Below are positions 6,117 through 55,137 of a stretch of 64,000 nucleotides of DNA, one piece after another. The notes beneath the pieces were generated by a model, which was given only the letters and a program-made list of their open reading frames with translations, had not been told where the DNA came from and ran no database searches. This DNA comes from an uncultured Gemmatimonadaceae bacterium. Lineage in GTDB: Bacteria > Gemmatimonadota > Gemmatimonadetes > Gemmatimonadales > Gemmatimonadaceae. The stretch is from assembly GCA_963781585.1 (NCBI GenBank), contig CAWAGQ010000013.1:502597-566596 (forward strand), given 5' to 3'. Positions within the stretch are counted from its first letter, which is position 1. Each line of letters starts with the position of its first letter. Position numbers and translations under genes: made by a program.

Positions 6117-7393
6117 TGGGCGCAGCCGGCGCCACGGTTGCGGCGGTTCCCTGGTATCGCACCATCACGCGGGCGCAGTGGCGGGCTCTGGTCGCGGCCA
6201 AGCTGGGGTGGATGCTGGACTCGATGGACTTCATGCTGTACGTGATGGCCGTCGGGCGGCTCAAGAGCTACTTCGGGTTCAGCGACGCCACGGCCGGATT
6301 GCTCGGCACCGTGACGCTGCTGACGTCGGCGGTAGGGGGAATTCTGTTCGGTCTGGTGGCCGACCGGATCGGGCGGGCCCGGGCGCTGATCGTGACCATC
6401 CTGATCTTCTCCGTATGCTCGTTAGGTGCGGCCACCTCGCAGGCGGTCTGGCAACTGATGCTCTGGCGTACGGTCCTCGGGATCGGGATGGGCGGCGAAT
6501 GGGCCTCGGGGGCGGTGCTGGTGAGCGAGACCTGGCCGGCGGAGCATCGCACCAAGGCGGTGAGCATCATGCAGTCGGGGTGGGCGCTGGGGTACATCCT
6601 TGCCGCCCTGATCGCCGCCCTGGTCCTCGACGTACTGCCGTTAGGCGATGCGGCGTGGCGATGGCTGTTCGTGGCAGGCGTGCTGCCGGCGCTGTTCACG
6701 CTCTGGATCCGTCGCCAGGTCGCCGAACCCGAGGCCTGGGTGCAGCGGCAATCCGGCAGGCGCCAGTCGGGCCGCCCGTTTGCGACGCTGTTCAGCCAGA
6801 CGTTCCGGCGCCGGACGGTGCTCGCCACCCTGCTCTCGGCGTTCGTCCAGTTCGCGAACTGGGGGCTCTTCTTCTGGCTCCCGGGTTTTCTGGCCAGGCC
6901 CCTGGAACAGGGCGGCGCGGGGATGTCGATCATCCGCTCCACGGGCTGGATCATTCCGGTGCAGATCGGCGCCTACATCGGTTACAACTCGTTCGGCTTC
7001 ATTTCCGACCGGCTCGGGCGCCGTCGCACGTTCATCGGCTATCTGGTCACGGCCGCGATCCTGGTGCCGCTCTACGGCCAGATGGCGCGGAGCCCGCTGG
7101 TGCTGATGGCGCTCGGCCCGCTGCTCGGCTTCGTCGGCTACGGCTACTTCAGCATGTTCGGATCGTTCCTGGCCGAGTTGTTCCCGACCGCGGTTCGCGC
7201 CACCGGCCAGGGACTCACCTACAACCTCGGACGCGGGCTGGGCGCGCTTGCGCCGTACACCATCGGCTACGTGGCCACCCTGCCTAACGTCGGGATCGGA
7301 TCCGCGCTCGGCCTCACCTCGGCCTTCTTCCTGGCCGGTGCCCTGCTGAGCCTGGCCTTTCCGGACCGGAGCCGACAGCCTCTGGATGACTGA
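6116..7393 (+). CDS. MFS transporter
   Basis: 12 TM pattern, GLVADRIGRAR motif A, GIGMGGEW. Confidence 0.92.
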   Translation: MGAAGATVAAVPWYRTITRAQWRALVAAKLGWMLDSMDFMLYVMAVGRLKSYFGFSDATAGLLGTVTLLTSAVGGILFGLVADRIGRARALIVTILIFSVCSLGAATSQAVWQLMLWRTVLGIGMGGEWASGAVLVSETWPAEHRTKAVSIMQSGWALGYILAALIAALVLDVLPLGDAAWRWLFVAGVLPALFTLWIRRQVAEPEAWVQRQSGRRQSGRPFATLFSQTFRRRTVLATLLSAFVQFANWGLFFWLPGFLARPLEQGGAGMSIIRSTGWIIPVQIGAYIGYNSFGFISDRLGRRRTFIGYLVTAAILVPLYGQMARSPLVLMALGPLLGFVGYGYFSMFGSFLAELFPTAVRATGQGLTYNLGRGLGALAPYTIGYVATLPNVGIGSALGLTSAFFLAGALLSLAFPDRSRQPLDD

Positions 7394-7417: not shown

Positions 7418-10400
7418 ATGAACCGCCGACGTGTTCGTTCTTCCGCCCGTGTGATCGGGCTCGGGATCACGGCCCTCGTGCTGTGCGGCGACGCGGTGGT
7501 TGCGCAACGGACCAGGCCGCCGCGGCCAACGGCGGCAGCGCCCGTGCCGCCGCCGCCGCGGGTCGCGCCACTCACCACGTACCTCGACCAGGAATTCCTC
7601 GGCGGGCTCCGCTATCGGATGGTCGGGCCGGCGCGCGGAGGGCGCGTCACTGCGGTCACCGGCGTTCCACGGGAACCGCTCACGTTCTACATGGGCTCGA
7701 CCGGGGGCGGAGTCTGGAAGACGACCGACGCCGGCCAGACGTGGACGAACGTCAGCGACGGGTTCCTCGCGGTGGGTTCGATCGGCGCCATCGACGTGTC
7801 GAAGTCCGATCCGAACGTGATCTACGTTGGTACGGGGTCAGATGCGCTGCGGTCGAACGTGTCGATCGGGAAGGGTGTGTACCGTTCCACCAACGCTGGC
7901 CGGACCTGGCAGTTTGTCGGTCTCGACCGCGCGGGGAATATCGGCGCGGTGGCAATTCACCCCGGAACGCCCCGCATCGTATTCGTGGCCGCACTCGGAA
8001 ATCCGTTCGCCGCGAATCCGGAACGCGGTGTATATCGGACCACGAACAGCGGCGATACCTGGGAGCGGGTGCTGCACGTGTCGGACAGCACGGGCGCGGT
8101 GGACGTGGAATTGCAGCCCGGCAATTCCCGGGTCGTGTACGCATCCATGTGGCGTGCCGAGCGAAAGCCGTGGACGATCATCTCCGGGGCGCGCGAAGGG
8201 GGCATCTACAAGAGCGCCGACGGCGGCACGACGTGGCGGAAGCTGACCAACGGGCTGCCCGATGGTCTGGTCGGGAAGAGCAACATCGCCGTCACTCCCG
8301 CCGATTCGGACATCGTCTACGTCCTCATGGAAGCGAGGCCCGGCGGCGGGCTGTATCGCTCTGACGACGCCGGTGAGTCGTTTCACCTGGTGAGCGACTA
8401 CCCCCCGCTGCTCTCCCGCCCGTTCTACTACACGGACCTGGCGGTCGATCCGCACGACCCGGACATCGTCTGGGTGGGCACCGAGGACCTGTATCGCAGC
8501 GGAGACGGTGGCCACACCTGGCGGGTGCAGCAGAATCCGCACGGCGACAACCACGATCTGTGGATCAATCCCAACGCCGCCGACATCATGATCCAGGCGA
8601 ACGACGGCGGCGCCACGGTGACGCTCAACGGCGGCGGGACGTGGTCCAGCCTCTACAACCAGCCGACCGCCGAGATCTATCAGGTGGCAGCCGACAACCA
8701 GTTTCCGTACCGGCTGTACGGCGCGCAGCAGGACAACACCACGCTCATCGTCCCGAGTCTGCCGCTCTCGTCAGGCAGCGCCGACAGTCCGGTGCAGACA
8801 TGGCGGGCGGGCCCGGGGTGCGAGACCGGTCCGATTCTGCCGCACCCGGTCGATCCCGACACGGTGTATGGCTCCTGCAAGGGGCGGTTCTCGCGAATGA
8901 ACCTGAGGACGGGGCAGGAGAAGCAGTACTGGGTGGGAGCGCAATCACTGTACGGAAACACCGGGGCGGCGCTGATCTACCGGTTTCAGCGGGTCGCGCC
9001 GATGGAGATCTCTCCCCACGATCCGCGGGTGATCTACTACGGATCGCAGTACGTCCATCGGACGCGCGACGAAGGCGTGACCTGGGAGCGCATTTCGCCG
9101 GATCTGACCTGGAATCCCCCGGAGCGACAGAACCGTCCCAGCGGTGAGCCCATCACGATCGACGTCACCGGTGAGGAGACCTACAGCGCGCTGTACGCCA
9201 TCCGCGAATCACCCCGGGAGGCCGGCGTGATCTGGACCGGCGCGAACGATGGCCCGTTCTACGTGACCCGAGACGATGGCAGGCACTGGACGAACGTCAC
9301 CCCCGCCGGGCAGCCTCCCGGCTGCCGGGTGCAGAACATCGAGCCGTCGCCTGCCAGCCGGGGGTCCGCGTATTACGCGGTGACCTGCTACCTGACAGGC
9401 GACTTCCGCCCGTGGCTGTGGCGCACCGATGACTACGGCGCACACTGGACGCTGCTCACCGATGGCACCAACGGCATTCCGCGCGACGAACCGACGCGGG
9501 TGGTGCGCGAGGACCCGGACCGCGAGGGCCTGCTGTATGCCGGCACCGAGTTCGGACTCTATGTCACGTTCGATGCCGGAAAGACGTGGCGTTCGCTCCA
9601 GCTCAATCTGCCGCACACACCGGTCACGGACCTGCGCGTGTTCCGGCAGGACCTCGTGATATCCACTCAGGGTCGCGGGTTCTGGATTCTCGACAACCTG
9701 ACGCCGCTCCACCAACTGACGGACGCCATCGCGACCGGACCGGCGCATCTCTTCGCGCCACGGCCGGCGTACCGCATGCGCTACGCGCGAGGGTTTGGCG
9801 GAGCGGACGTTCGGCGCGATGAGCCGTCGGATCCCGGCTACCCGCCGCCGGGAGCCGCGATCGACTTCTGGCTTTCCCCCGACGCGTCGCGCGAGCCGGT
9901 GACCCTGGAGATTCTCGATTCCCTCGGGAACGTGGAGCGGCGGTTCGAAGCGGTCGATCGGTCCGCACGCGCGGCCGTCAGTGACCGCGTCGAGGACGAC
10001 GCGCAGGATCGCCTGACGCGGCAGGCGGGCGTCAACCGTTTCGTCTGGGACCTGGCCCTGCCGGGACCGCGCGCGATGCACGGATCGCGAGGGCTGCGCG
10101 GTCCGTTGGTCGTTCCCGGTGCCTATCGAGTCCGTCTCACGGCGGGGAGCTATCGCGCCGAGCGACCGCTCACGCTGCGGATCGATCCGCGGGTGGCCGC
10201 CGACGGCGTGTCGTCGGCGGATCTGCGCGAGCAACTGGAGCACAACCTGCAGGTGCGCGATCTGGTGAGCGAAGTGAACGATCTGGTGGACCGCGTGGAC
10301 GTGGCGCGCGCGCGACTGGCTGGTGCGGCGGGAGTGGCGGCGGACACGCTGGCGAAGCTGAACGCGTTGCGTGCCACGCTCGTCACCTCCGCGGTGCGCT

Positions 10401-13198: not shown

Positions 13199-13275
13199 GG
13201 AGGCCAAAGACCAAAGGCCACAGGCCAAAGGCCAGAGGTCAAAGGCCAGAGGCGAAAGGAGAGAGTTCAGGAGCG
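13199..13275 (+). repeat. Degenerate heptamer tandem repeat (AAAGGCC family), 11 units
   Basis: ggaggcc aaagacc aaaggcc acaggcc aaaggcc agaggtc aaaggcc agaggcg aaaggag agagttc aggagcg. Confidence 0.9.
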
Positions 13276-22300: not shown

Positions 22301-22395
22301 CGGGCCACAGGCTACCGCCAAGGGGCCAGGGGACAAAGGCCAAGGGCCAAGGGCCAAAGGATGAACGGACAGGCCGCCGGTCAGAGTCACAGGCC
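22300..22395 (+). repeat. Degenerate heptamer repeat in the hypC-hypD spacer
   Basis: aggggcc aggggac aaaggcc aagggcc aagggcc aaaggat ... acaggcc. Confidence 0.85.
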
Positions 22396-26553: not shown

Positions 26554-29297
26554 GGTCGATCCCCGCGCGCGCGGGGGAAACGGTAGTCCGGGCCGTGTAT
26601 TGCGCAGTGCTTGGCGCGGGTCGATCCCCGCGCGCGCGGGGGAAACGTCTCCCTGAGTGGCGGCGGCGAATGCGCCGCGGGTCGATCCCCGCGCGCGCGG
26701 GGGAAACCCGGCTACGGGGATTTGAACCCCGGAACGCCCGAGGTCGATCCCCGCGCGCGCGGGGGAAACTCCCGGAGCGGCATCGGGACGTTTCCGGGAC
26801 ACGGTCGATCCCCGCGCGCGCGGGGGAAACGTCGATGAATGGCGTAAGCGCCTGGGCGAAAGGGTCGATCCCCGCGCGCGCGGGGGAAACGGAGTCGAAC
26901 CTCCGGACGTTCACCATACGCGCGGTCGATCCCCGCGCGCGCGGGGGAAACCCTATCCGGCAGGGCGGGCTCGCGTGAGCCAGCGGTCGATCCCCGCGCG
27001 CGCGGGGGAAACCGGCCGGCCGGGCGCCGCCGTGGCCCATCCGAGGGTCGATCCCCGCGCGCGCGGGGGAAACGTCGTCGTGGGACTTCTTCGCCATGTC
27101 GTCCAGGGTCGATCCCCGCGCGCGCGGGGGAAACGACCATACGCCGACGTGGGGAGATTATCGCCGCGGTCGATCCCCGCGCGCGCGGGGGAAACCAGGG
27201 CACCTGTGCGCTGAACGCGCGCGAATGGGGTCGATCCCCGCGCGCGCGGGGGAAACTTCCTCGGCACGCTGCCGTCGGACCCGGCCGGCGGTCGATCCCC
27301 GCGCGCGCGGGGGAAACGGCGCGCCCCACCTGGAGGATAGGACCATGCGGGGTCGATCCCCGCGCGCGCGGGGGAAACTCTTTGTGGACGCGCCCAATCT
27401 CACCATCAATGGGTCGATCCCCGCGCGCGCGGGGGAAACGGCAATGGCATGCAACGCGACTACTGCCGCACGGGTCGATCCCCGCGCGCGCGGGGGAAAC
27501 TGGCGGGCGGTGCTGGCCGCGGTCCCGGCCCGAGGTCGATCCCCGCGCGCGCGGGGGAAACGGAGACCCTGCGGCGTGGTCTGGCGCGACAGGAGGTCGA
27601 TCCCCGCGCGCGCGGGGGAAACTCCTCGATCTCCACCTCGGTAGTGACGGTGGGGGGTCGATCCCCGCGCGCGCGGGGGAAACTCGAATCACAGAGAGTG
27701 TGGAGTTAGGCGCCAAGGTCGATCCCCGCGCGCGCGGGGGAAACTGCGGGACCTGGAGCGGATTGGTCCAGGCGAAGGGTCGATCCCCGCGCGCGCGGGG
27801 GAAACACATGTTATCCGGGCTCATAGCGGTCGCCCTCCGGTCGATCCCCGCGCGCGCGGGGGAAACGCTCCAGCCGCCGATGCCGGCGAAGAAGTGACAG
27901 GTCGATCCCCGCGCGCGCGGGGGAAACAGCGTCGCTCCGACGAGCGCCCGTTTCTGGGCCAGGTCGATCCCCGCGCGCGCGGGGGAAACCACGATTCGCG
28001 CATGCGTGGGAGCAGTACCACCGGTCGATCCCCGCGCGCGCGGGGGAAACATTTCGGCCTCACTGAAAAGGGGAAGGTGGAAGGGTCGATCCCCGCGCGC
28101 GCGGGGGAAACATCGTCGACCGTGCACGTCGATGCGCGGCGAACTCGCGTGCGCAGGGTCGATCCCCGCGCGCGCGGGGGAAACCCGTCGATCGGCGACC
28201 GCGCGCCGAACTCGCGAGCATGCGGTCGATCCCCGCGCGCGCGGGGGAAACCCGCCGATCGCTCGTGCGCCCGAGCACTCCGGCGAGGTCGATCCCCGCG
28301 CGCGCGGGGGAAACCTCACGCCGTGGCACGACACGGAGGCCAGTAGCGGTCGATCCCCGCGCGCGCGGGGGAAACCTATCACCTCTGCATGCAATATGGC
28401 GACAGTCGGGTCGATCCCCGCGCGCGCGGGGGAAACAAGCCGGCCACTACGTCCGTCGCAAGATTCCAGGGTCGATCCCCGCGCGCGCGGGGGAAACGGT
28501 ACCGCACGGAAGGATAGCCCCGGCTTGCCGGGTCGATCCCCGCGCGCGCGGGGGAAACATCGTCACGAGTCCACATGCGATGCCGACTGCTCCGGACGAG
28601 CTATCGGTCGATCCCCGCGCGCGCGGGGGAAACCGACCTCGATGCGCGCTGCGATCCCCGCGCGAACGCCTGACGCTACGGACGGTCGATCCCCGCGCGC
28701 GCGGGGGAAACGCCGTGACCGCATCGCGTGGCGATCCCGCGCGCGCGAAGTCTGCGCTGCCAGTCAACGGGTCGATCCCCGCGCGCGCGGGGGAAACCGC
28801 TCCGCGCCCCGCGGTACATCGCGGAGGAGAGGTCGATCCCCGCGCGCGCGGGGGAAACACAACCCTCGATTTTCAAACAACGGCCTGCAAGGGTCGATCC
28901 CCGCGCGCGCGGGGGAAACTTTGTCGCTGCGCCGACCTTGCTCGCTGCGCCGGGTCGATCCCCGCGCGCGCGGGGGAAACGCTGGGCGGACGGTCGCCGG
29001 CACCTGACCGCGCGGTCGATCCCCGCGCGCGCGGGGGAAACTGCGGGACCTGGAGCGGATTGGCCCAGGCGAAGGGTCGATCCCCGCGCGCGCGGGGGAA
29101 ACTCCCGCCCGCGCCCCCAGAGCCGCCCATCGCGCGGTCGATCCCCGCGCGCGCGGGGGAAACGCGCGGCGGCTTCGCCATCGCATCGACGCCGAAGGTC
29201 GATCCCCGCGCGCGCGGGGGAAACGCTGACGCATCGGCGATCGCGCACGCGACGAGCTCGCCGGGATCGGGTCGATCCCCGCGCGCGCGGGGGAAAC
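26554..29297 (-). CRISPR. Type I-E CRISPR array: 44 identical 28-bp repeats (crRNA sense GTTTCCCCCGCGCGCGCGGGGATCGACC), 43 spacers
   Basis: Parsed by hand: 32 spacers of 33 bp, one of 32, two of 34, eight of 35-58; orientation from similarity to the E. coli I-E repeat and adjacency to cas2. Confidence 0.98.
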
Positions 29298-33867: not shown

Positions 33868-35453
33868 GTTTCAGCCTCCTGCATCGTTTCCTTTCCAGCA
33901 GCAAGTGACTCGGTGTCGACGAGGTACGTCAACGTCCTTTCGAACTCTGTTTCTGCCAGCGCGCGCGCCTTCATCGTTCGGCCATCCGCCATCGCACTCG
34001 AGACCGCTTCGTAAAATTGCTTGCGCACCACTTGGCGGGTTCGCTCCTCGAAGCGACGCCGCGCATCGTCCTTGTCACCACTCAGACCCAATACGAACGC
34101 CTCAAAGGCGGCACCGAGTGCGCTCCACGCCGCTGGCTGAGCCCCTAAGGAGCGTACGAAATCTTGGCGCTGCTCCCGTTGTTCTCTCCCATCGCTGCCC
34201 GCCCGTGGCAAGCTCTCGCGAGCGAAAGTGGAGAGGGCCGCCCAAAGACACCGCACCGCTGCTTCGGCAAACCTGAGGGCATGCTCGATGGCTTCGCGGG
34301 CATCCGGATCGGCGAAGAGCCCCACAGCGGCGGCGAGCTGTTCGGCCCGAGTGTAGTCAATGCGCGATTTCTCGGCCGAAAGCCCGAACATGCCAATCGT
34401 GTAGACGGTGGACGTTCCGACAACATCCAGGGCCTCGGGGCTGGCCATCTGATCCAAGGTCATCGGGCGTCGAAATTTCTTACCATCGCTGCGCCCGCCT
34501 TCGAAGAGACTATCTGCGTTGCGCCAGAACGCCTTTTCAGGATCGATACCAATGCTCAAGAACCCGCGCTTTTCATCAAGCCGATATGACACCATCGGGT
34601 CAAGATCGCACCCTTCCGCCAAACCTTGTCCCACACACCGCACGAAGTGAAGAACCTGGTGATCCTCCCCCACAAGTTCGATTCGTCGGCTGACCCACGT
34701 GAGCACGTCCAACCACCCCGTGGGAAGGCGCTTGGGCTCTTGTGTCACCGGCATTCTCTCGGGCAACGCCCCCCGCTCCCAAGCTGGAGCGTCGTCTTGG
34801 CTTGCGACGATCGGGCGGTTCTGGGCCGGGTCATAAACGAGTAAGTTCGCCACCAAGGTCTCGAATAGGGACGCTCCGCGAAGCAGCACAACGGCGGCCC
34901 GGACCAAAGGCGCCGCTGTGGCGGATGTCGGCTCGTTGGGCTTCTTCACCAAGCCCCCCGTGGCGAACGCTTGATGTGCCAAGAGGGCTCGCGTAGCCTG
35001 CGCCGGTTCCATCGATGGGTGATGCGCGACAGGGCGGTGTTGAAACAACTCCCGGGCCGATCCCCAGCTGGAACGCTCCAAGGTGAGCGCGTCGATCGGA
35101 TCCGCCGCGAACTGCTGTACCAATCCTCGAGTCTGCGCAAATGGATGCGTCGGATGGAACAAATCCATCCGATCTCGTACACCACTCAGGTATCTCTCAA
35201 CATGGTCGGCCTCAAAGCGTCCGCTGCGCGCGATGACGCACCATTCGTTCATGGTTGTCGGCCCCACATAAGCCCGATGCAGCACCGCCAGTAAGTGCCG
35301 ATGCAGCACGGCGAGAACCAATGGCGATGGGTCTGCGATCGTCCTGACGCGATGCGCCTCGACCAGGGCATCCCTGGTGGAAAGCTCCGCGCGCTGGCCA
35401 TCCATGAATTCGCAGGGGATCCACGGTTGCGTGGTGAGGTTGAATGAGTCCAT
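33864..35453 (-). CDS. cas8e: Cas8e/Cse1 large subunit
   Basis: FNLTTQPWIP, DLFHPTHPFAQ, SLFETLVANL; ATG overlaps the cas3 stop. Confidence 0.93.
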   Translation of the reverse strand: MDSFNLTTQPWIPCEFMDGQRAELSTRDALVEAHRVRTIADPSPLVLAVLHRHLLAVLHRAYVGPTTMNEWCVIARSGRFEADHVERYLSGVRDRMDLFHPTHPFAQTRGLVQQFAADPIDALTLERSSWGSARELFQHRPVAHHPSMEPAQATRALLAHQAFATGGLVKKPNEPTSATAAPLVRAAVVLLRGASLFETLVANLLVYDPAQNRPIVASQDDAPAWERGALPERMPVTQEPKRLPTGWLDVLTWVSRRIELVGEDHQVLHFVRCVGQGLAEGCDLDPMVSYRLDEKRGFLSIGIDPEKAFWRNADSLFEGGRSDGKKFRRPMTLDQMASPEALDVVGTSTVYTIGMFGLSAEKSRIDYTRAEQLAAAVGLFADPDAREAIEHALRFAEAAVRCLWAALSTFARESLPRAGSDGREQREQRQDFVRSLGAQPAAWSALGAAFEAFVLGLSGDKDDARRRFEERTRQVVRKQFYEAVSSAMADGRTMKARALAETEFERTLTYLVDTESLAAGKETMQEAET

Positions 35454-38230
35454 TACGACGCCTTGTCTGCTTGTCGGATACAAAGCCCCAGTTCAGCATC
35501 GAGGACGAAGCTCACGCCCGCCACCCGTGCGCGTCCCTCTTCGAATGCGAGCAGTCGCCGATATCGCAACAGCGGCGATTTCTTCCAGCTCTCCGGTATC
35601 GCCGTTTGAGGATCGTTAATGATGGCATGGAAGGCGCGTCGGTTGCTCACGCCGATAGAGCGGCGCACCAGCCGTTCGACGAGCAGCCAGTCAGGCTCTT
35701 TGCAAAGGTCGAGAGGCGTTTCGTCGCCGTCACCCACGAGGAGCTGCCCTCCCCGCCGGTCCACACAAAGGAGTTCAACTGACGGGGGCCCGAGGCGCGT
35801 ATCCGCACGCAACTGCTGGTGCAGCACGGGATCGTCATCATCTGTCAGGAACACTCGCAAGTTGCCGAAAGGATCGTCGACGACGTAGGGATGCGGCATG
35901 AGCTTCTGTTCCGAGAGGTTGCGTTGAACCGCCTTCGCGCCGTGGTGCGCGATCCAGGCGGCATGGAGCTGTTCGCCCGCAGCGACCGGCCTGTCGCAAT
36001 AGACTTCTTCGACCAGTGGCTCGATATCGGTAGGTAGGGTGAAGGTCTCCGTGTTCTCGAGCTTCTCCAGCGTCCGGCGAACCAACATTTCTGCGTACAC
36101 AACTGCAACCTGATCCAATGAAGCCGTCGTCCAAGGGCCATCGGGACACACAATCGTGAGCCGCGGCTCCTTCACCCCCGGAAATCGGTTACCTCGCTGA
36201 TGCCGCCACAGGCGCCCGGCCCGCTGGAGTAGGAGGTCCATCGGCGCGACATCGGTGACCATGAAGTCGAAGTCGACATCGAGGCTCTGCTCTAGCACCT
36301 GGGTCCCGATCACGACGCATCCCTCCGGTCGCTCGGTGTCGCCGCCCTCAGGCCCCAGCCACTTGGCCAGCCGTTCCTCGCGCTCCACGCGGTCAGCTGG
36401 CAGAAGCTGTGAGTGCAGAAGCAGGCGGCCAAGGCCCGCAGCCATCTCGCACACGCGTGTGGTGGCTTCCTGTGCGCGCGCGACCGTGTTGCAGATCCAC
36501 CCTACACATCCGCCGCGCCGCGCCACCTCGATAACCCTGCGCGTAAGCTCGTCTACGTCGTCTCGGCTGCGCTCGACCCCCACCGAGATCGGTTTCCCGC
36601 GAGGTGCAAACGAGTCGACCTTGTTGGAAGTGCGAGATGCGAGAGTGATCCGCGGATAAGGTCCCGTCGGCTGTTCTCCTTCAGGCATTCCGGCACCCTT
36701 GCGATACGCACGAAGGAGGTCGGCGCGGCGGCTGGAGGGCAGGGTGGCCGAGAGCAAGACTACAGTGGTGCCGGTGGCAGCGAGCCACTCGACGAGACGA
36801 TCGAGCAGATTACTGGTATAGGTGTCATATGCATGGATCTCATCGAAGATCACGACCTTGCTGGCAAGCCCGTAGAGTCGGACGAATGCGTGGGGCACAC
36901 GCATGACGCCAAGTAACGCCTGGTCGATCGTCCCGACTGCGAATTCGCCGAGCAGTTTGCGCTTCTTCGACAGGAACCACGCCTCGGCGCGCACCGCCCC
37001 GACGCCTTCAGCATCGCTGTCGTACACCGCCCCTACGCGGAGTTTTCGAAAGCCCTCCCAGAGCGATGCTTCGCCGTGCGCCAAGAGGAGGGTCGAGAGC
37101 GCTCCTCCGCGCGTGCGCGCCAGGAATCGCTCGATACGGCCGAACATCTGATTCGCCGTCGCCTGGGTGGGGAGGCCGATATAGAACCCTCCCTCGCCGA
37201 TCTGCGCGGCCGCGGCATCGGCCAGGGTGAGCGCGGCCTCCGTCTTTCCTTCGCCCATTGGTGCTTCCACGACGATCAGTGAAGGTGTGTCTAGGGTCGG
37301 TGCGATCGAGTCCGCGGCGGAATGCAGGGGCCAAGGGTCCAGCTGCGGGAATAGTTGCCGAAACGACCGCGCCGTCGATGGCGGCGCTGGGCGAAAGCCT
37401 GCATTCTCCAATGCCGTGTCTGCCCGAGCCAGAGCGATTCGCCAGTAGGTGGGCAGCGACCGTTGAGGTGGCTCGTAAAGGAAGAAGTCCTCCATCGAAC
37501 CGATCCAATCCGCGACCGACGTGACACCTGCGAGCAAGACGACGTAGGCGTGATCAATCTGCGCGACACCGGACAGCGAAGTGACACGGAAATGGTCAGC
37601 CATCACCTTGACGACGGCCGCCCGTGCGGAGTCCCATTGCGCTTTCCGGCCACGCTCCCGCGACCCCGGCGGTTTGCAGACGGACGCGTCGGTGGGAAAC
37701 TGCCCGTGATGGGCAGTGACCGCACGCGCCAGACGTAGTGCAGTCGAGGTCGACGCTCCGTAGTGTTCCTCCAACTCTGGTTTGAGGAAGAACAGGCCGA
37801 TGTCTCCGTGAAACCGAGCCCCCTGGTCCGCCTGGAGATCGAATCCACGCTTCGGGAATTCACGTCGGGCCCAATCGACCTTCGCCTGGAAGGCCGGTGT
37901 GGCCTTTCCAAGGTCGTGCAGCGCGATGACAAACAGCAAGGTCCGCAGGCTGTCGAGGCGATCCGTCGACAGCGCCAGCAGCCGGTCCCGTACGGCAGGT
38001 GGCTGTATCGCTGTGAGCAATCGCGCAGCCACGGCTGCGACGTCCAACATGTGACAGAGTAGCGAATGCGCGGGGCAAGACCCCTTGGGTTGTGCCTTAC
38101 CCCAGAGCAGCCACTCCGGCCGCCCGCCCGCATGGCCCAACCACTCGTCAATTGTGTCGGCGGTGAGAGCGGCCGCAGGAGGGACCGGACCGCCAAGCGA
38201 TGCTACCCAGTCACACAAGACGTCGGCCAC
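35453..38230 (-). CDS. cas3: Cas3 HD nuclease-helicase
   Basis: HMLDV, LHDLGKATPAFQ, ADWIGS, APMGEGKTE, DEIHAYD, LSAT, QRAGRLWRH. Confidence 0.96.
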   Translation of the reverse strand: MADVLCDWVASLGGPVPPAAALTADTIDEWLGHAGGRPEWLLWGKAQPKGSCPAHSLLCHMLDVAAVAARLLTAIQPPAVRDRLLALSTDRLDSLRTLLFVIALHDLGKATPAFQAKVDWARREFPKRGFDLQADQGARFHGDIGLFFLKPELEEHYGASTSTALRLARAVTAHHGQFPTDASVCKPPGSRERGRKAQWDSARAAVVKVMADHFRVTSLSGVAQIDHAYVVLLAGVTSVADWIGSMEDFFLYEPPQRSLPTYWRIALARADTALENAGFRPAPPSTARSFRQLFPQLDPWPLHSAADSIAPTLDTPSLIVVEAPMGEGKTEAALTLADAAAAQIGEGGFYIGLPTQATANQMFGRIERFLARTRGGALSTLLLAHGEASLWEGFRKLRVGAVYDSDAEGVGAVRAEAWFLSKKRKLLGEFAVGTIDQALLGVMRVPHAFVRLYGLASKVVIFDEIHAYDTYTSNLLDRLVEWLAATGTTVVLLSATLPSSRRADLLRAYRKGAGMPEGEQPTGPYPRITLASRTSNKVDSFAPRGKPISVGVERSRDDVDELTRRVIEVARRGGCVGWICNTVARAQEATTRVCEMAAGLGRLLLHSQLLPADRVEREERLAKWLGPEGGDTERPEGCVVIGTQVLEQSLDVDFDFMVTDVAPMDLLLQRAGRLWRHQRGNRFPGVKEPRLTIVCPDGPWTTASLDQVAVVYAEMLVRRTLEKLENTETFTLPTDIEPLVEEVYCDRPVAAGEQLHAAWIAHHGAKAVQRNLSEQKLMPHPYVVDDPFGNLRVFLTDDDDPVLHQQLRADTRLGPPSVELLCVDRRGGQLLVGDGDETPLDLCKEPDWLLVERLVRRSIGVSNRRAFHAIINDPQTAIPESWKKSPLLRYRRLLAFEEGRARVAGVSFVLDAELGLCIRQADKAS

Positions 38231-38658
38231 ATTAGCCTCATCTTACTAATAAGGTGGGAGGGTTCGTCGCCCATTGCACATCCATGGCCGCACCTCCAAG
38301 ACAAGCCGGGTCAGGATGCCTCGTGGGACCTCCCGCGCGACGCCGCGTCAAGCTAGCGGTCGATGCCCTGGCCGGTTTGGTCTTCGGGCTTCACGGTCGA
38401 GCGATCATGCCGGGATCGCGGGCCCTGATCGCAAACTTCTCGAACTTGTTTCGGATTCGCTAGGCGCTGTCCGCGCCGCCGTCCTTCGCCTTCCGGCCGG
38501 AAATGCTGCGGCCCCCTCCACCGCGGCAAGAATCCGGTACGTCCTGCGTCATTCTGGTAATTCGGAACGGCGGGATGAGCTCACATTGCCGGTGCGGTTC
38601 GGAGCTCTTTGCGAACCCCGCGCCTGAGTATGCCGGTCTCGCCAGCCCGTTCAGGGTC

Positions 38659-38742
38659 GCCGGCGTGGCGGAACTGGCAGACGCGGCACCCTCGCAAGGC
38701 GCTGGGCGCAAGCCCGTGTGGGTTCCATTCCCATCGCCGGCA
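38659..38742 (+). tRNA. Atypical class II tRNA: tRNA-Leu-type body with CGC (Ala) anticodon; possibly a pseudo-tRNA
   Basis: Acceptor GCCGGCG/CGCCGGC with A73; D-arm GCG-GAACTGGCAGA-CGC; anticodon arm GCACC-CTCGCAA-GGCGC; variable arm GGGC-GCAA-GCCC; T-arm GTGGG-TTCCATT-CCCAT. Confidence 0.8.
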
Positions 38743-38826
38743 CCCACCGTGGTTTCCCTTGACTCGGCACGCCGAGCACGATTATGCTCGGCATACCTTG
38801 CGAGGGTGCCGCGGTCCAGCCACGCT

Positions 38827-39168
38827 GTGATCGCGCTGAGACGGAGGCGTCAGGTCGGCGCCTCCGTTCCTCTTTACACCGAGGCCCTGCTAGCCCAGGG
38901 ACTCGAGCGTCGCCAGCTCGGGACGATCGTTGAGACGCTGGCACAAGGCGTCTTCGAGGTCGAGTTCTCTCACGACCGGGGTCACACCTATGCGTCGGTG
39001 AGCGTCCCCGCCACCACGCTGCCGATCCTGCACCACCAGCCCGCCGGGCGCTGGCGCGCGCTCTTCGGCATCGTCCGATCAATCTGGATGGTTGCGGCCT
39101 TCGGCCTCACGGCGGAACCTGGCGCCGTCTCGCTTGGAACAGTCGCGGCCGCGGGCTCAACTCTATAG
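38827..39168 (+). pseudogene. Probably degraded DUF4926-like protein
   Basis: GLERRQLGTIVETLAQGVFEVEFSHDRGHTYAS resembles the DUF4926 core; start and C-terminus atypical. Confidence 0.6.
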
Positions 39169-39228
39169 ATGATGCCGATAGCACAAGCACTTTCTCCCGC
39201 GGATGGCCAGGAAGGTCCTTATGGAGAA

Positions 39229-39301
39229 CTCCCGAGGCAGGACTCGAACCTGCGACCCGGTGATTAACAGTCACCTGCTCTACCAGCTGAGCTACTCGGG
39301 A
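39229..39301 (-). tRNA. tRNA-Asn(GTT), CCA not encoded
   Basis: TCCCGAGTAGCTCAGCTGGTAGAGCAGGTGACT-GTT-AATCACCGGGTCGCAGGTTCGAGTCCTGCCTCGGGAG, canonical cloverleaf. Confidence 0.97.
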
Positions 39302-39458
39302 ATGGGTGCGAAAGCTAGACAACCCCCGGCGGGCGGGTCAAGCGAAAGCGATCCCGCCCGCGCCACGCTTGACCGCCGGCCGGACTGCGCGCAAGCTCGC
39401 ACCGTCGGCCGGCCGCGCCGCCGCCACCAGCCCCGGGCCACTCTCGCCCGCCACTCTC

Positions 39459-40307
39459 GTGACCGCACCTAACGAACGCACCAGACCCATCGCCCTCGTC
39501 ACCGGCGCCTCCGGCGGCATCGGCCAGGCACTCGCCTCCCAGCTGGCCGCCCGCGGCTACGACCTCGTCCTCGTCGCGCGCCGCGAGGAACGACTCCGCG
39601 ACCTGGCCGCATCACTGGCCCGGTCCCACAGCGTGCAGTGCGAAATCGTTGTCGCCGATCTCGCGAAGCATGAACAACGCGAGCGCATCATCCGGGACCT
39701 GGAACCGCACCGCGACCGCGTCGAAATCCTGATCAACAACGCCGGATTCGGCACCCACGGCTACTTCCGCGAGACGGACCTCGAGCGCGAGCTCGAGCTC
39801 ATCGCCGTGAACTGCGACGCTCCGGTCCACCTCGCCAAGCGCATCCTCCCGTGGCTGCTCGCGCGCCGTCGCGGCTTCATCATGAACGTGGGCTCGGTCG
39901 CGAGCTTCACTCCCGGACCGGTGATGGCGCTGTACTACGCATCCAAGGCATTCCTCCTCTCCTTCTCCGAGGCCCTGTGGGAAGAGTGCCGAGCGAGCGG
40001 TGTCGCCGTCACCGCCCTCTGTCCCGGCCCGGTACGCACGGGATTCCAGGAGGCCGCCGGCGTCGTCTCGACCGCGCGATCGAGCATTGCCGCGCCGATG
40101 TCGGCCGATGACGTCGCTGCCTCCGGCCTGTCCGCGATGTTCGCCGGGCGGCGACTGGACGTCCCCGGGGGCGCCAACAAGCTCTCGGTCTCCCTGATGA
40201 GGTGGCTGCCGCGCACGTTCGCCCTCTCCACCGTGCGCAAGTTCCAGGAGGAACGCCGCCGCCAGACCCGGCGCGCGCGCGGACTCCCGGACGACACCAG
40301 CGCCTAA
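39459..40307 (+). CDS. SDR family oxidoreductase
   Basis: TGASGGIG, NNAGFG, YYASK. Confidence 0.92.
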   Translation: MTAPNERTRPIALVTGASGGIGQALASQLAARGYDLVLVARREERLRDLAASLARSHSVQCEIVVADLAKHEQRERIIRDLEPHRDRVEILINNAGFGTHGYFRETDLERELELIAVNCDAPVHLAKRILPWLLARRRGFIMNVGSVASFTPGPVMALYYASKAFLLSFSEALWEECRASGVAVTALCPGPVRTGFQEAAGVVSTARSSIAAPMSADDVAASGLSAMFAGRRLDVPGGANKLSVSLMRWLPRTFALSTVRKFQEERRRQTRRARGLPDDTSA

Positions 40308-43957: not shown

Positions 43958-46930
<2,973 letters not shown>

Positions 46931-55008: not shown

Positions 55009-55137
55009 ATAGCTCATAGGTCACACGTCACAGGGCTCTGGATGCCGCTATGAGCTATGAGCTATGAGCTATGAGCTATGAGCTATGAGCTATGAGCTAT
55101 GAGCTATGAGCGATGCGCCATGAGCCATGAGTCAGGG
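55009..55137. repeat. (GCTATGA)x9 perfect tandem repeat plus degenerate units and an inverted arm
   Basis: Perfect units at 55047-55109, degenerate units to 55137; ATAGCTC ATAGGTC ACACGTC at 55009-55029 in opposite orientation. Confidence 0.95.

What the first reader, a model, noticed from the sequence alone, without database searches (positions are those of the whole stretch)
38659..38742. tRNA with leucine identity elements but an alanine (CGC) anticodon beside cas3
Seen: a perfect 7-bp acceptor stem with C3:G70 (no G3:U70), A73, the Leu-type D-arm GGCGGAACTGGCAGACGC, A15 with U48, a long GGGC-GCAA-GCCC variable arm, and a well-formed loop CU-CGC-AA. Defects are an A29:C41 mismatch, C57 in the T-loop (TTCCATT) and no encoded CCA (tRNA-Asn here lacks it too). 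CGC differs from every Leu anticodon (NAG, YAA) at two or more positions, while the stems are nearly intact. Established: bacterial LeuRS largely ignores the anticodon and AlaRS needs G3:U70. Inference: if expressed, it could insert Leu at GCG, a very common codon here. It could be a mistranslating or toxic tRNA (addiction or anti-phage module linked to CRISPR-Cas), a non-ribosomal Leu donor, an anticodon-nuclease decoy, or a silenced relic of one.
Basis: partly seen in the sequence, partly recalled or inferred. Interest (0 to 1): 0.8.

Follow-up and report, generated by a model that had tools for sequence, protein, structure and literature searches.

The report
Leucine-type tRNA with antisense partner
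A transfer RNA built like a leucine tRNA but reading an alanine codon sits beside a small RNA gene made to base-pair with it; related bacteria keep this pairing, which looks like an off-switch for a potentially toxic mistranslating tRNA.

Summary
38659-38742(+) is a class II, Leu-type tRNA (A73, C3:G70, Leu D arm) with anticodon CGC.

54 nt downstream of the tRNA lies a sigma70-like promoter (38759-38788). It is followed by an ~80-nt RNA whose 5' end is an 18-nt perfect complement of the tRNA's anticodon arm (38796-38813). That RNA then complements the D-stem and acceptor 5' strand and ends in a hairpin with a U-rich tail.

One truncated scan of species genomes recovered four Gemmatimonadota loci with the same layout: L120 (CGC), L026 and L059 (GGC), L035 (ACC). 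Each antisense matches its own tRNA. 72 of 75 positions pair in cognate sets, against 6-12 of 15 in non-cognate sets.

Neighbouring genes differ, and 0 of 4 homologous loci carry cas genes, so cas3 adjacency is incidental. No CreA-like repeat was found.

Best reading: a self-contained two-RNA module in which an antisense sRNA silences a Leu-charged tRNA that decodes Ala or Gly codons. GCG is the commonest codon here. The logic is toxin-antitoxin-like. Expression, charging and toxicity are untested.

The parts
38659..38742 (+). Class II Leu-type tRNA with anticodon CGC (38693-38695), A73, C3:G70, no encoded CCA
   Evidence: ARAGORN. Rfam RF00005 45 bits against 29. Sequence. Closest to tRNA-Leu.
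38640..38664 (+). 5' leader segment partly complementary to the tRNA's own 5' part (weak, imperfect palindrome with 38659-38683)
   Evidence: the repeat finder I2: 25 nt, 72% complementary. Leader-to-5'-half duplex is -50 kcal/mol but z is only -1.2 here and -1.7 to -3.4 in the homologues.
38759..38788 (+). Sigma70-like promoter TTGACT-18-TATGCT between the tRNA and the antisense element
   Evidence: It is the only promoter-like site on either strand in 38200-39400, where 0.1 is expected. The same position holds a promoter in L059, L035 and L120 by the same tool. L026 matches only a looser pattern.
38795..38875 (+). Predicted ~80-nt small RNA: single-stranded 5' seed, small hairpin, then terminator-like hairpin (ends inferred, not mapped)
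   Evidence: The -10 box ends 7 nt before the complement starts. Fold is -42.9 kcal/mol, z -3.43. No Rfam family matches.
38796..38813 (+). 18-nt perfect complement of tRNA 38682-38699 (3' strand of the D stem, 5' strand of the anticodon stem, the whole anticodon loop, and 2 nt beyond it)
   Evidence: the repeat finder I1: 100% complementary. The exact 18-mer occurs twice in the window, and 0 of 100 shuffles gave any match.
38814..38825 (+). Second antisense block, complementary to tRNA 38663-38674 (acceptor 5' strand, positions 8-9, D-stem 5' strand). The D loop is skipped.
   Evidence: the repeat finder I10: 12 nt, 83%. 12 of 14 pairs over tRNA positions 3-16, and 10-12 of 14 in the homologues.
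38840..38875 (+). 12-bp hairpin (38840-38868) followed by a C/U-rich tail ending in UUU; presumed terminator of the small RNA
   Evidence: Fold. Equivalent hairpins appear in all four homologues. The consensus terminator scan did NOT flag it or its homologues.
38827..39168 (+). Context: ORF with a DUF4926 domain. Its only in-frame start (GTG 38827) lies inside the small-RNA region, and it has a hydrophobic C-terminal extension.
   Evidence: Pfam PF16277, E 5.6e-12, profile positions 8-54 of 57. ORF list. It is not present beside the homologous modules.
35453..38230 (-). Context: cas3 of a type I-E operon (cse1, cas7, cas5, cas6e, cas1 further left; array 26554-29297)
   Evidence: Pfam. Repeats.
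39229..39301 (-). Context: ordinary tRNA-Asn(GTT), no encoded CCA

Best explanation
The tRNA is one half of a compact, self-contained two-RNA module of about 400-450 bp.

Half one is a tRNA derived from the tRNA-Leu(CAA) lineage. It keeps the features bacterial LeuRS reads: A73, the Leu D arm and elbow nucleotides, and the long variable arm. It lacks the AlaRS mark G3:U70. Its anticodon arm has been replaced so that it reads GCG.

Half two is a small RNA made from its own strong promoter just downstream. Its first ~18 nt pair with the tRNA's anticodon loop and the 5' strand of the anticodon stem. Its next ~12 nt pair with the D-stem and acceptor 5' strand.

Inferred mechanism: the sRNA seed docks on the exposed anticodon loop and invades the stem. 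This unfolds or sequesters the tRNA or its precursor, so the tRNA cannot decode. A partly complementary 5' leader may add a second lock acting in cis. If the short-lived sRNA falls away, the stable Leu-charged tRNA would put Leu at the commonest Ala codon and poison protein synthesis.

That is toxin-antitoxin logic with a tRNA as the toxin, whether it serves addiction, stress response or abortive infection.

Shown: the anatomy, its conservation, and the co-variation. Inferred: transcription of both RNAs, charging by LeuRS, ribosomal use, toxicity, and the direction of control.
For: 1. An 18-nt perfect inverted match sits next to a 10/12 block. 0 of 100 shuffles gave any exact match.

2. The same layout occurs in 4 Gemmatimonadota loci out of 121 fetched. 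Alignment z-scores of the reverse-complemented tRNA 5' half against the downstream DNA are window 6.3, L035 8.9, L026 6.1, L120 5.5 and L059 5.1. The next best ordinary site is 3.9.

3. The antisense follows its own tRNA even though the anticodon arms differ completely. 72 of 75 cells pair over 15 positions, against 6-12 of 15 for the 20 non-cognate combinations and 3-8 of 15 with the register slid by 1-3. Cognate duplexes are -50 to -63 kcal/mol and non-cognate ones -27 to -47.

4. The window and L120 share CGC but differ by an indel and a substitution in the arm. Both changes are mirrored in the antisense.

5. A promoter-like site is the only one in each ~500-nt region in 4 of 5 modules, where 0.0-0.1 is expected. 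Its -10 box ends 3-6 nt before the first position of the pairing register.

6. The predicted dimer beats the two separately folded RNAs by 13-21 kcal/mol in 5 of 5.

7. The anticodons in the family read GCG, GCC and GGU. GCG and GCC are the two commonest codons in 10 window genes.

8. The module lies in unrelated neighbourhoods, several of them defence- or TA-like: cas3 and DUF4926; HicA and ankyrin; NYN/HEC-09 and WYL.

9. Precedent: Ser-type allo-tRNAs with odd anticodons lie near TA systems, and two tested variants killed E. coli (PMC5389517, passages).
Against: - There are only five examples, and none has expression data.
- L026 and L035 carry 55-66-nt insertions in the T loop. ARAGORN finds no tRNA there, so they can hardly act on the ribosome, yet they keep 13-16-nt perfect antisense matches.
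- The window tRNA has C57 and an A:C mismatch.
- Rfam at E<=1 reported only L059's tRNA among the four loci, not L120's.
- No promoter-like site precedes any of the five tRNAs.
- The terminator scan flagged none of the five hairpins on the + strand, because the T runs are short.
- The D arm and the non-Leu anticodon of the homologues were imposed by my search pattern, so they are not independent evidence.
- Gene conversion between the inverted copies could keep them alike without any RNA pairing.
- Leader complementarity is barely above shuffles (z -1.2 to -3.4).
Confidence: 0.45

Rival explanations
1. Regulated, beneficial mistranslation. The same two RNAs work as described, but the tRNA is released on purpose under stress to diversify the proteome, as proposed for tRNAProX in Streptomyces. 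The sRNA is its dedicated repressor rather than an antitoxin.
For: The anatomy evidence is the same. Bacterial tRNAs with Pro identity and Ala, Asn or Thr anticodons are described as deliberate mistranslators (PMC11415595, passages).
Against: No dedicated synthetase or other conserved protein accompanies the module. Putting Leu at the two commonest codons is about the most damaging choice. The dispersed, variable genomic sites look like selfish or defence cargo.
Confidence: 0.15
2. The tRNA-shaped RNA is not an adaptor at all. It is a decoy or sponge that titrates the small RNA, or a processing scaffold. The small RNA is the real effector, acting on other targets such as the host's normal tRNA with the same anticodon loop, or on mRNAs.
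For: 2 of 5 members have T-loop insertions that should abolish ribosomal use yet keep the pairing. The sRNA has the strong promoter and the tRNA has none detectable.
Against: Acceptor stems stay perfectly or near-perfectly paired and A73 is kept in 5 of 5. That is not needed for a sponge. The complement extends into parts specific to this tRNA, namely the stem and the D and acceptor strands, not only the loop shared with a normal tRNA.
Confidence: 0.15
3. Non-functional relic. An old inverted duplication of a tRNA-Leu 5' half sits around a pseudogene, kept similar by short-tract gene conversion. The promoter and hairpin belong to neighbouring genes.
For: The tRNA has defects (C57, a mismatch, T-loop insertions in two homologues). 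A canonical tRNA-Leu(CAA) in L045 also has an inverted 32-nt copy of its 5' part about 100 nt downstream. 5'-half fragments of tRNA-Leu are common among the scan hits.
Against: The arrangement, including the D-loop deletion in the copy and the promoter register, is shared by two subfamilies whose anticodon arms have nothing in common. Neighbouring genes differ in every locus, and in L035 and L059 the downstream gene is convergent, so the promoter serves no protein gene.
Confidence: 0.15
4. The inverted repeats are DNA sites for an inversion switch that flips the 96-bp segment carrying the tRNA's 3' part and the promoter.
For: An 18-bp perfect inverted repeat flanks a promoter-bearing segment, as in invertible promoters (recalled).
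Against: The repeat sequence differs in every locus and follows the anticodon arm, unlike sites read by one recombinase. No recombinase gene was found in the flanks. The match is only 10 perfect nt in L059.
Confidence: 0.05
5. A CRISPR-guarding addiction module of the CreTA kind, tied to the adjacent type I-E system.
For: It lies 428 bp from the cas3 start. CreT toxins act through tRNAs (PMC8501985, abstract in the search listing).
Against: No repeat-like sequence with up to 6 mismatches lies outside the array. The best spacer match to the region is 11 nt. 0 of 4 homologous modules lie beside cas genes.
Confidence: 0.03

Closest known systems
nev-tRNAs of nematodes (PMC3333845, PMC4300185; abstracts seen in search listings)
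   Same: Class II, Leu-type bodies that carry anticodons for other amino acids (Gly, Ile) and are charged with Leu in vitro.
   Different: They are eukaryotic and described as nematode-specific. No antisense partner is reported. Here the organism is bacterial, the anticodons are Ala and Gly, and a cognate sRNA gene is attached.
allo-tRNAs of Acidobacteria and others (PMC5389517; passages read)
   Same: Irregular bacterial tRNAs from soil metagenomes with many non-matching anticodons. Active and inactive forms exist, often near toxin-antitoxin genes. Some are suspected to be regulatory RNAs rather than adaptors.
   Different: They have Ser identity and an 8/4 or 9/3 acceptor/T geometry. Here the tRNA has a Leu body with standard 7/5 geometry. 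The word 'antisense' does not occur in that paper's main text.
tRNAProX (ProA, ProN, ProT) of Streptomyces and Kitasatospora (PMC11415595; passages read)
   Same: Bacterial tRNAs that combine one identity with another amino acid's anticodon, including Ala.
   Different: They have Pro identity, a class I body and A34 anticodons. Their pairing with a dedicated synthetase is recalled, not checked here. No RNA partner is known.
RNA-only toxin-antitoxin pairs (type VIII; CreTA: PMC8501985, PMC9458426, PMC10097628, abstracts in the search listing) and type I pairs with separately encoded ~18-nt antisense RNAs (recalled)
   Same: A small RNA neutralises a harmful RNA encoded next to it. The complementary stretch is short and the antitoxin promoter is strong. 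The loci sit near defence genes.
   Different: In those systems the toxin is an mRNA or a small RNA, and CreA works through Cascade on DNA. Here the presumed toxin is a tRNA and neutralisation would be by direct pairing to its anticodon arm.
T-box leaders
   Same: An RNA reads a specific tRNA through its anticodon.
   Different: A T-box pairs with 3 nt plus the acceptor end and controls a downstream gene. Here 18 + 12 nt pair, no T-box was found by Rfam, and no common downstream gene exists.

Membership tests
tRNA (Rfam RF00005) | Covariance-model score above the gathering threshold, with a cloverleaf | tested here: met
   45.0 bits against 29. ARAGORN agrees.
Bacterial tRNA-Leu | Discriminator A73 | tested here: met
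   A follows the acceptor 3' strand. A73 is present in 25 of 27 Leu-bodied odd-anticodon tRNAs from the scan.
Bacterial tRNA-Leu | Class II body: long variable arm and a Leu-type D arm with A14, A15, G18, G19 | tested here: met
   Sequence. 62/84 identity to a canonical Gemmatimonadales tRNA-Leu(CAA). Nearest neighbours are all Leu-bodied.
Bacterial tRNA-Leu | Leu anticodon (NAG or YAA) | tested here: not met
   The anticodon is CGC.
Bacterial tRNA-Leu | Charged by LeuRS | not testable with these tools
   Needs an aminoacylation assay. tRNAscan-SE isotype models were not on hand.
tRNA-Ala | G3:U70 in the acceptor stem | tested here: not met
   C3:G70. [quoted passage not shown]
allo-tRNA | 8/4 or 9/3 acceptor/T-stem geometry with Ser identity | tested here: not met
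   7-bp acceptor and 5-bp T stem in the Rfam alignment.
CreTA (CRISPR-regulated toxin-antitoxin) | Ectopic degenerate CRISPR repeat(s) flanking a guide that matches the toxin promoter | tested here: not met
   All 45 repeat-like hits with up to 6 mismatches lie within 26554-29297. The best spacer match is 11 nt. More degenerate repeats would escape this test.
CreTA (CRISPR-regulated toxin-antitoxin) | Conserved association with cas genes | tested here: not met
   0 of 4 homologous modules have cas genes in the flanks held. Only 0.1-10 kb is held on each side.
RNA-RNA toxin-antitoxin pair (type VIII-like) | Adjacent antitoxin RNA complementary to the toxin RNA | tested here: met
   18 + 10/12 nt complementarity that co-varies in 5 loci.
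RNA-RNA toxin-antitoxin pair (type VIII-like) | Toxin RNA arrests growth and the antitoxin RNA rescues it | not testable with these tools
   Needs expression tests.
T-box riboswitch | Stem I specifier plus T-box antiterminator upstream of a regulated gene | tested here: not met
   No Rfam match other than tRNA in 38300-39500 or in the four loci. The downstream genes are not shared.

The most novel reading that the evidence does not exclude
This is a previously undescribed class of all-RNA toxin-antitoxin module in which the toxin is a tRNA. It is Leu-charged and re-aimed at the cell's commonest Ala or Gly codons. It is neutralised by a cognate antisense sRNA that pairs with its anticodon arm. 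Matched, swappable anticodon-arm and seed cassettes insulate paralogous modules from one another. The 27 or more Leu-bodied tRNAs with non-Leu anticodons seen in other phyla would then be relatives controlled in other ways.
Probability: 0.3. Interest if true: 0.92.

Novelty: new variant of a known kind. Interest (0 to 1): 0.8.

Why it matters
Natural tRNAs whose identity and anticodon disagree are rare, and they bear on how rigid the genetic code is.

Here such a tRNA comes with its own co-evolving antisense RNA. That implies the cell, or a selfish element, treats it as dangerous and switchable. If confirmed, it would add a new toxin type, a mis-decoding tRNA, to toxin-antitoxin biology. It would also be a first case of an sRNA dedicated to silencing one tRNA through its anticodon arm, and a natural template for switchable missense suppression.

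The scan also suggests that Leu-bodied tRNAs with foreign anticodons are widespread in uncultured bacteria. None of my ten literature searches turned up a report of such a module.

Tried and rejected
- **CreTA-like link to the adjacent type I-E system.** Rejected: no ectopic repeat, no spacer match, and no cas genes at the homologues.
- **T-box or other known RNA family for the downstream element.** There are no Rfam matches.
- **Leader of a downstream protein gene.** Rejected: downstream genes differ, and they are convergent in L035 and L059.
- **Conserved protein partner.** None was found.
- **Plasmid and phage collections.** They returned only ordinary or unannotated tRNA-Leu-like hits at 72-81% identity, plus one 27-nt perfect match to the 5' end in an unannotated phage contig, and nothing with the module.
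- **The single genome-contig scan.**
Rfam reports a group I intron match (E <= 1e-6; only L108 reaches the gathering score) in 4 of 5 intron-type (CTTGA-type) loci among 9 tested.
  - The counts are therefore lower bounds. The source genome was not recovered, and relatives with Leu anticodons or altered D arms could not be seen.
- **MAFFT alignment of the five whole modules.** It did not align the antisense parts across the two subfamilies. I counted pairs in a fixed register by script instead of using count of structure pairs.
- **L045's strong inverted match (z 17.4).** It is a different case: a canonical tRNA-Leu(CAA) with an inverted 5' fragment.
- **L117 (Gemmatimonadaceae, GTG).** It has no significant antisense (z 0.9).
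- **Not checked.** No paper supplements were consulted.

Full report
**1.

ARAGORN reports tRNA-Ala(cgc) at 38659-38744(+) and tRNA-Asn(gtt) at 39228-39302(-). Rfam's tRNA model scores 45.0 bits at 38659-38742, against a gathering score of 29, with one non-standard pair in the anticodon stem. tRNA-Asn scores 70 bits.

- acceptor GCCGGCG/CGCCGGC with C3:G70
- discriminator A
- D arm GGCGGAACTGGCAGACGC
- loop CT-CGC-AA
- variable arm GGGC-GCAA-GCCC
- T loop TTCCATT
- an A:C mismatch
- no encoded CCA, which tRNA-Asn also lacks

The body is Leu-type.
- The best annotated matches in phage records are tRNA-Leu at about 80%.
- It is 62/84 identical to a canonical Gemmatimonadales tRNA-Leu(CAA) whose loop reads CTCAAAA where this one reads CTCGCAA.
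- Among 86 tRNAs in the fetched loci, its 25 nearest are all tRNA-Leu or Leu-bodied. That set is biased, because a Leu D-arm pattern fetched it.
- The plain MFE fold is not a cloverleaf.

**2.

The stretch 38682-38699 covers the end of the D stem, the 5' strand of the anticodon stem, the whole loop and 2 nt more. It recurs as a perfect 18-nt reverse complement at 38796-38813. Directly after that, 38814-38825 complements tRNA 38663-38674 at 10 of 12 positions, and the D loop is skipped. No exact match occurred in 100 shuffles.

Between the tRNA and this antisense copy lies TTGACT-18-TATGCT (38759-38788). It is the only promoter-like site on either strand in 38200-39400, where 0.1 is expected. 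Its -10 box ends 7 nt before the complement begins.

The RNA predicted from about 38795 has a free 5' seed and a 12-bp hairpin at 38840-38868, followed by a C/U-rich tail ending in UUU (z -3.43). The consensus terminator scan did not flag this hairpin.

If transcription ran through from the tRNA, the antisense would pair with the anticodon arm in cis and abolish the cloverleaf (z -5.05).

**3. Relatives.**

I had one genome-contig scan. I used a pattern that fixes the Leu D arm and forbids A at anticodon position 35.

It was swamped by tRNA-Leu genes interrupted after U34. Rfam reports a group I intron match (E <= 1e-6; only L108 reaches the gathering score) in 4 of 5 intron-type (CTTGA-type) loci among 9 tested. 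The source genome was not among the hits.

ARAGORN found a full tRNA at 30 of 129 matched sites. Three are normal tRNA-Leu in a shifted register. The other 27 are Leu-bodied tRNAs with non-Leu anticodons from many phyla. Of these, 25 of 27 have A73 and none has G3:U70.

I tested every site for an inverted copy of its own 5' half downstream. Only six stand out: the window (z 6.3), L035 (8.9), L026 (6.1), L120 (5.5), L059 (5.1) and L045 (17.4). The next best is 3.9. L045 is a different case, a canonical tRNA-Leu(CAA) with an inverted 5' fragment. The other four loci are all labelled Gemmatimonadota.

**4. A conserved module.**

L120 (CGC), L026 (GGC), L059 (GGC) and L035 (ACC) show the same order as the window: Leu-type tRNA, promoter, antisense of the tRNA's own anticodon arm, antisense of its D-stem and acceptor 5' strand with the D loop skipped, then a hairpin.

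Promoter evidence:
- The promoter tool finds exactly one site, in the same place, in L059, L035 and L120, where 0.0-0.1 is expected.
- L026 has only a looser match, TTGCAC-17-TATGAT.

Pairing evidence:
- In a fixed register, 72 of 75 cells pair over 15 positions.
- Non-cognate tRNA/sRNA combinations give 6-12 of 15, and slid registers give 3-8 of 15.
- Several positions show three or four different pair types.
- Cognate duplex energies are -50 to -63 kcal/mol, against -27 to -47 for non-cognate pairs.
- The dimer is predicted to beat the two separately folded RNAs by 13-21 kcal/mol in all five.

The window and L120 share CGC but differ by one indel and one substitution in the arm. Both changes are mirrored in the antisense.

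L035 and L059 share about 110 nt of upstream leader and the rest of the module, but their anticodon arms and seeds are unrelated. Homology stops at the module's edges. The window, L120 and L026 share the 3' trailer CCCACCG.

**5. Context.**

The window has a type I-E cas operon to the left of the module, and a DUF4926 ORF, tRNA-Asn, an SDR gene and an MscS gene to the right.

The other loci differ:

| Locus | Neighbouring genes |
|---|---|
| L120 | a protein kinase fragment |
| L035 | gltX and uvrC |
| L059 | a BlaR1-type peptidase, HicA, an ankyrin protein |
| L026 | WYL/WCX regulators, DUF2779, VWA, DUF6717, an NYN nuclease (PADLOC HEC-09) |

None of the four has cas genes in the DNA held. 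In the window, no repeat-like sequence with up to 6 mismatches lies outside the array at 26554-29297, and no spacer matches the region over more than 11 nt. The position beside cas3 is therefore best read as incidental, although some sites look like defence or TA neighbourhoods.

**6. Mechanism.**

The anatomy is what the calls show. The rest rests on outside knowledge or inference.

Established knowledge:
- AlaRS needs G3:U70 (PMC7609411, passage).
- LeuRS, AlaRS and SerRS do not read the anticodon (PMC11028032, abstract in the listing; PMC11415595, passage).
- On that basis the tRNA, if made and matured, should carry Leu to GCG.

GCG is the commonest codon in 10 window genes at 47.3 per 1000. 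GCC is second at 45.0.

Inference: a strongly promoted sRNA, whose 5' end matches the anticodon loop and then the stem, would dock on the loop and invade the stem. That would keep the tRNA or its precursor out of translation. A partly complementary leader (weak statistics) may add a lock in cis. The combination of a weak toxin promoter, a strong antisense promoter and short complementarity is the pattern of RNA-based toxin-antitoxin pairs (recalled).

**7. Evidence that cuts the other way.**

- There are five loci and no expression data.
- Two members (L026, L035) have 55-66-nt insertions in the T loop, and ARAGORN does not call them.
- The window copy has C57 and a mismatch.
- Rfam at E<=1 reported only L059's tRNA among the four loci.
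- No promoter-like site precedes any of the tRNAs, and none of the hairpins passes the terminator scan on the + strand.
- The D arm and non-Leu anticodon of the relatives were imposed by my pattern.
- Gene conversion could mimic co-variation.

The rivals are therefore regulated mistranslation, a sponge or decoy role, a relic, a DNA inversion switch, and a CreTA-like guard. Each is listed above with its odds.

**8. Comparison and novelty.**

The closest known things are:
- nematode nev-tRNAs, which have a Leu body and foreign anticodons
- allo-tRNAs, which have Ser identity, odd geometry, and lie near TA genes (PMC5389517)
- tRNAProX
- RNA-only TA pairs such as CreTA

None of them has a tRNA coupled to its own antisense RNA gene. 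Ten full-text searches found no description of such a module or of bacterial Leu-bodied tRNAs with Ala anticodons. Subscription-only papers and supplements were not seen.

I rate it a new variant of known kinds, namely mismatched-identity tRNAs and RNA antitoxins. If the toxin reading proves right, it would be a new class.

Noticed in passing
L001-L121 (scan): At least 27 full-length Leu-bodied tRNAs (25 with A73) carry non-Leu anticodons across many phyla and have no antisense partner. Examples: GTC in Planctomycetota (L023, L037, L078, L079) and in L096; TGG in Acidobacteriota (L002, L047/L072) and in L080; TCC in L019, L091 and L107. L016, L088 and L109 have 8-nt loops and were given four-base anticodons by ARAGORN. 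ARAGORN missed further apparent members that have encoded CCA and very long variable arms (L033 CGC, L007 GGC, L101 TGG).
   Followed up: partly
L026:7859-7998 and L035:6033-6178: Two module tRNAs carry unrelated 55-66-nt hairpin-forming insertions inside the T loop, while the acceptor, D, anticodon and variable stems stay paired. These are independent insertions at the same site in the two subfamilies.
   Followed up: partly
L045:9995-10212: A canonical tRNA-Leu(CAA) on the minus strand (10126-10212) has a 32-nt, 94% inverted copy of its 5' part about 100 nt beyond its 3' end. The geometry matches the module, but no clear promoter or terminator is present.
   Followed up: partly
L039: about 9997-10030(-) and 6287-6369(-): A 5'-half fragment whose first 34 nt or so match, by eye, the canonical tRNA-Leu(CAA) lies 3.6 kb upstream of that gene in the same orientation. 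This may be the scar of an element that integrated into the anticodon loop.
   Followed up: no
L012, L022, L028, L030, L031, L094, L108, L111, L121 and many others: tRNA-Leu genes are interrupted after U34 in Acidobacteriota, Alphaproteobacteria, Binatia and others. Rfam reports a group I intron match (E <= 1e-6; only L108 reaches the gathering score) in 4 of 5 intron-type (CTTGA-type) loci among 9 tested. A second interrupted type in Ruminococcus and Clostridia (L063, L105, L113 and others, sometimes in tandem) matched no Rfam family.
   Followed up: partly
window 38827-39168: The DUF4926 ORF has no start codon near the domain's N terminus. Its only in-frame start lies inside the small-RNA region, the sRNA hairpin overlaps its 5' end, and it ends in a ~50-aa hydrophobic extension. 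It may be a gene truncated or captured by insertion of the module.
   Followed up: partly
window 38743-38750; L120:378-385; L026: about 7997-8005: The 3' trailer CCCACCG directly after the discriminator is shared by three modules. The other subfamily has CGCC. It may be a processing signal.
   Followed up: no
window 26554-29297: A type I-E-like CRISPR array of 44 identical 28-nt repeats. Spacers are mostly 32-35 nt, but some are 37-58 nt long.
   Followed up: no
window 13201-13269, 22317-22360, 46098-46134, 55047-55131: Short tandem heptamer arrays (for example GCTATGA x12 at 55047-55131) of unknown meaning.
   Followed up: no
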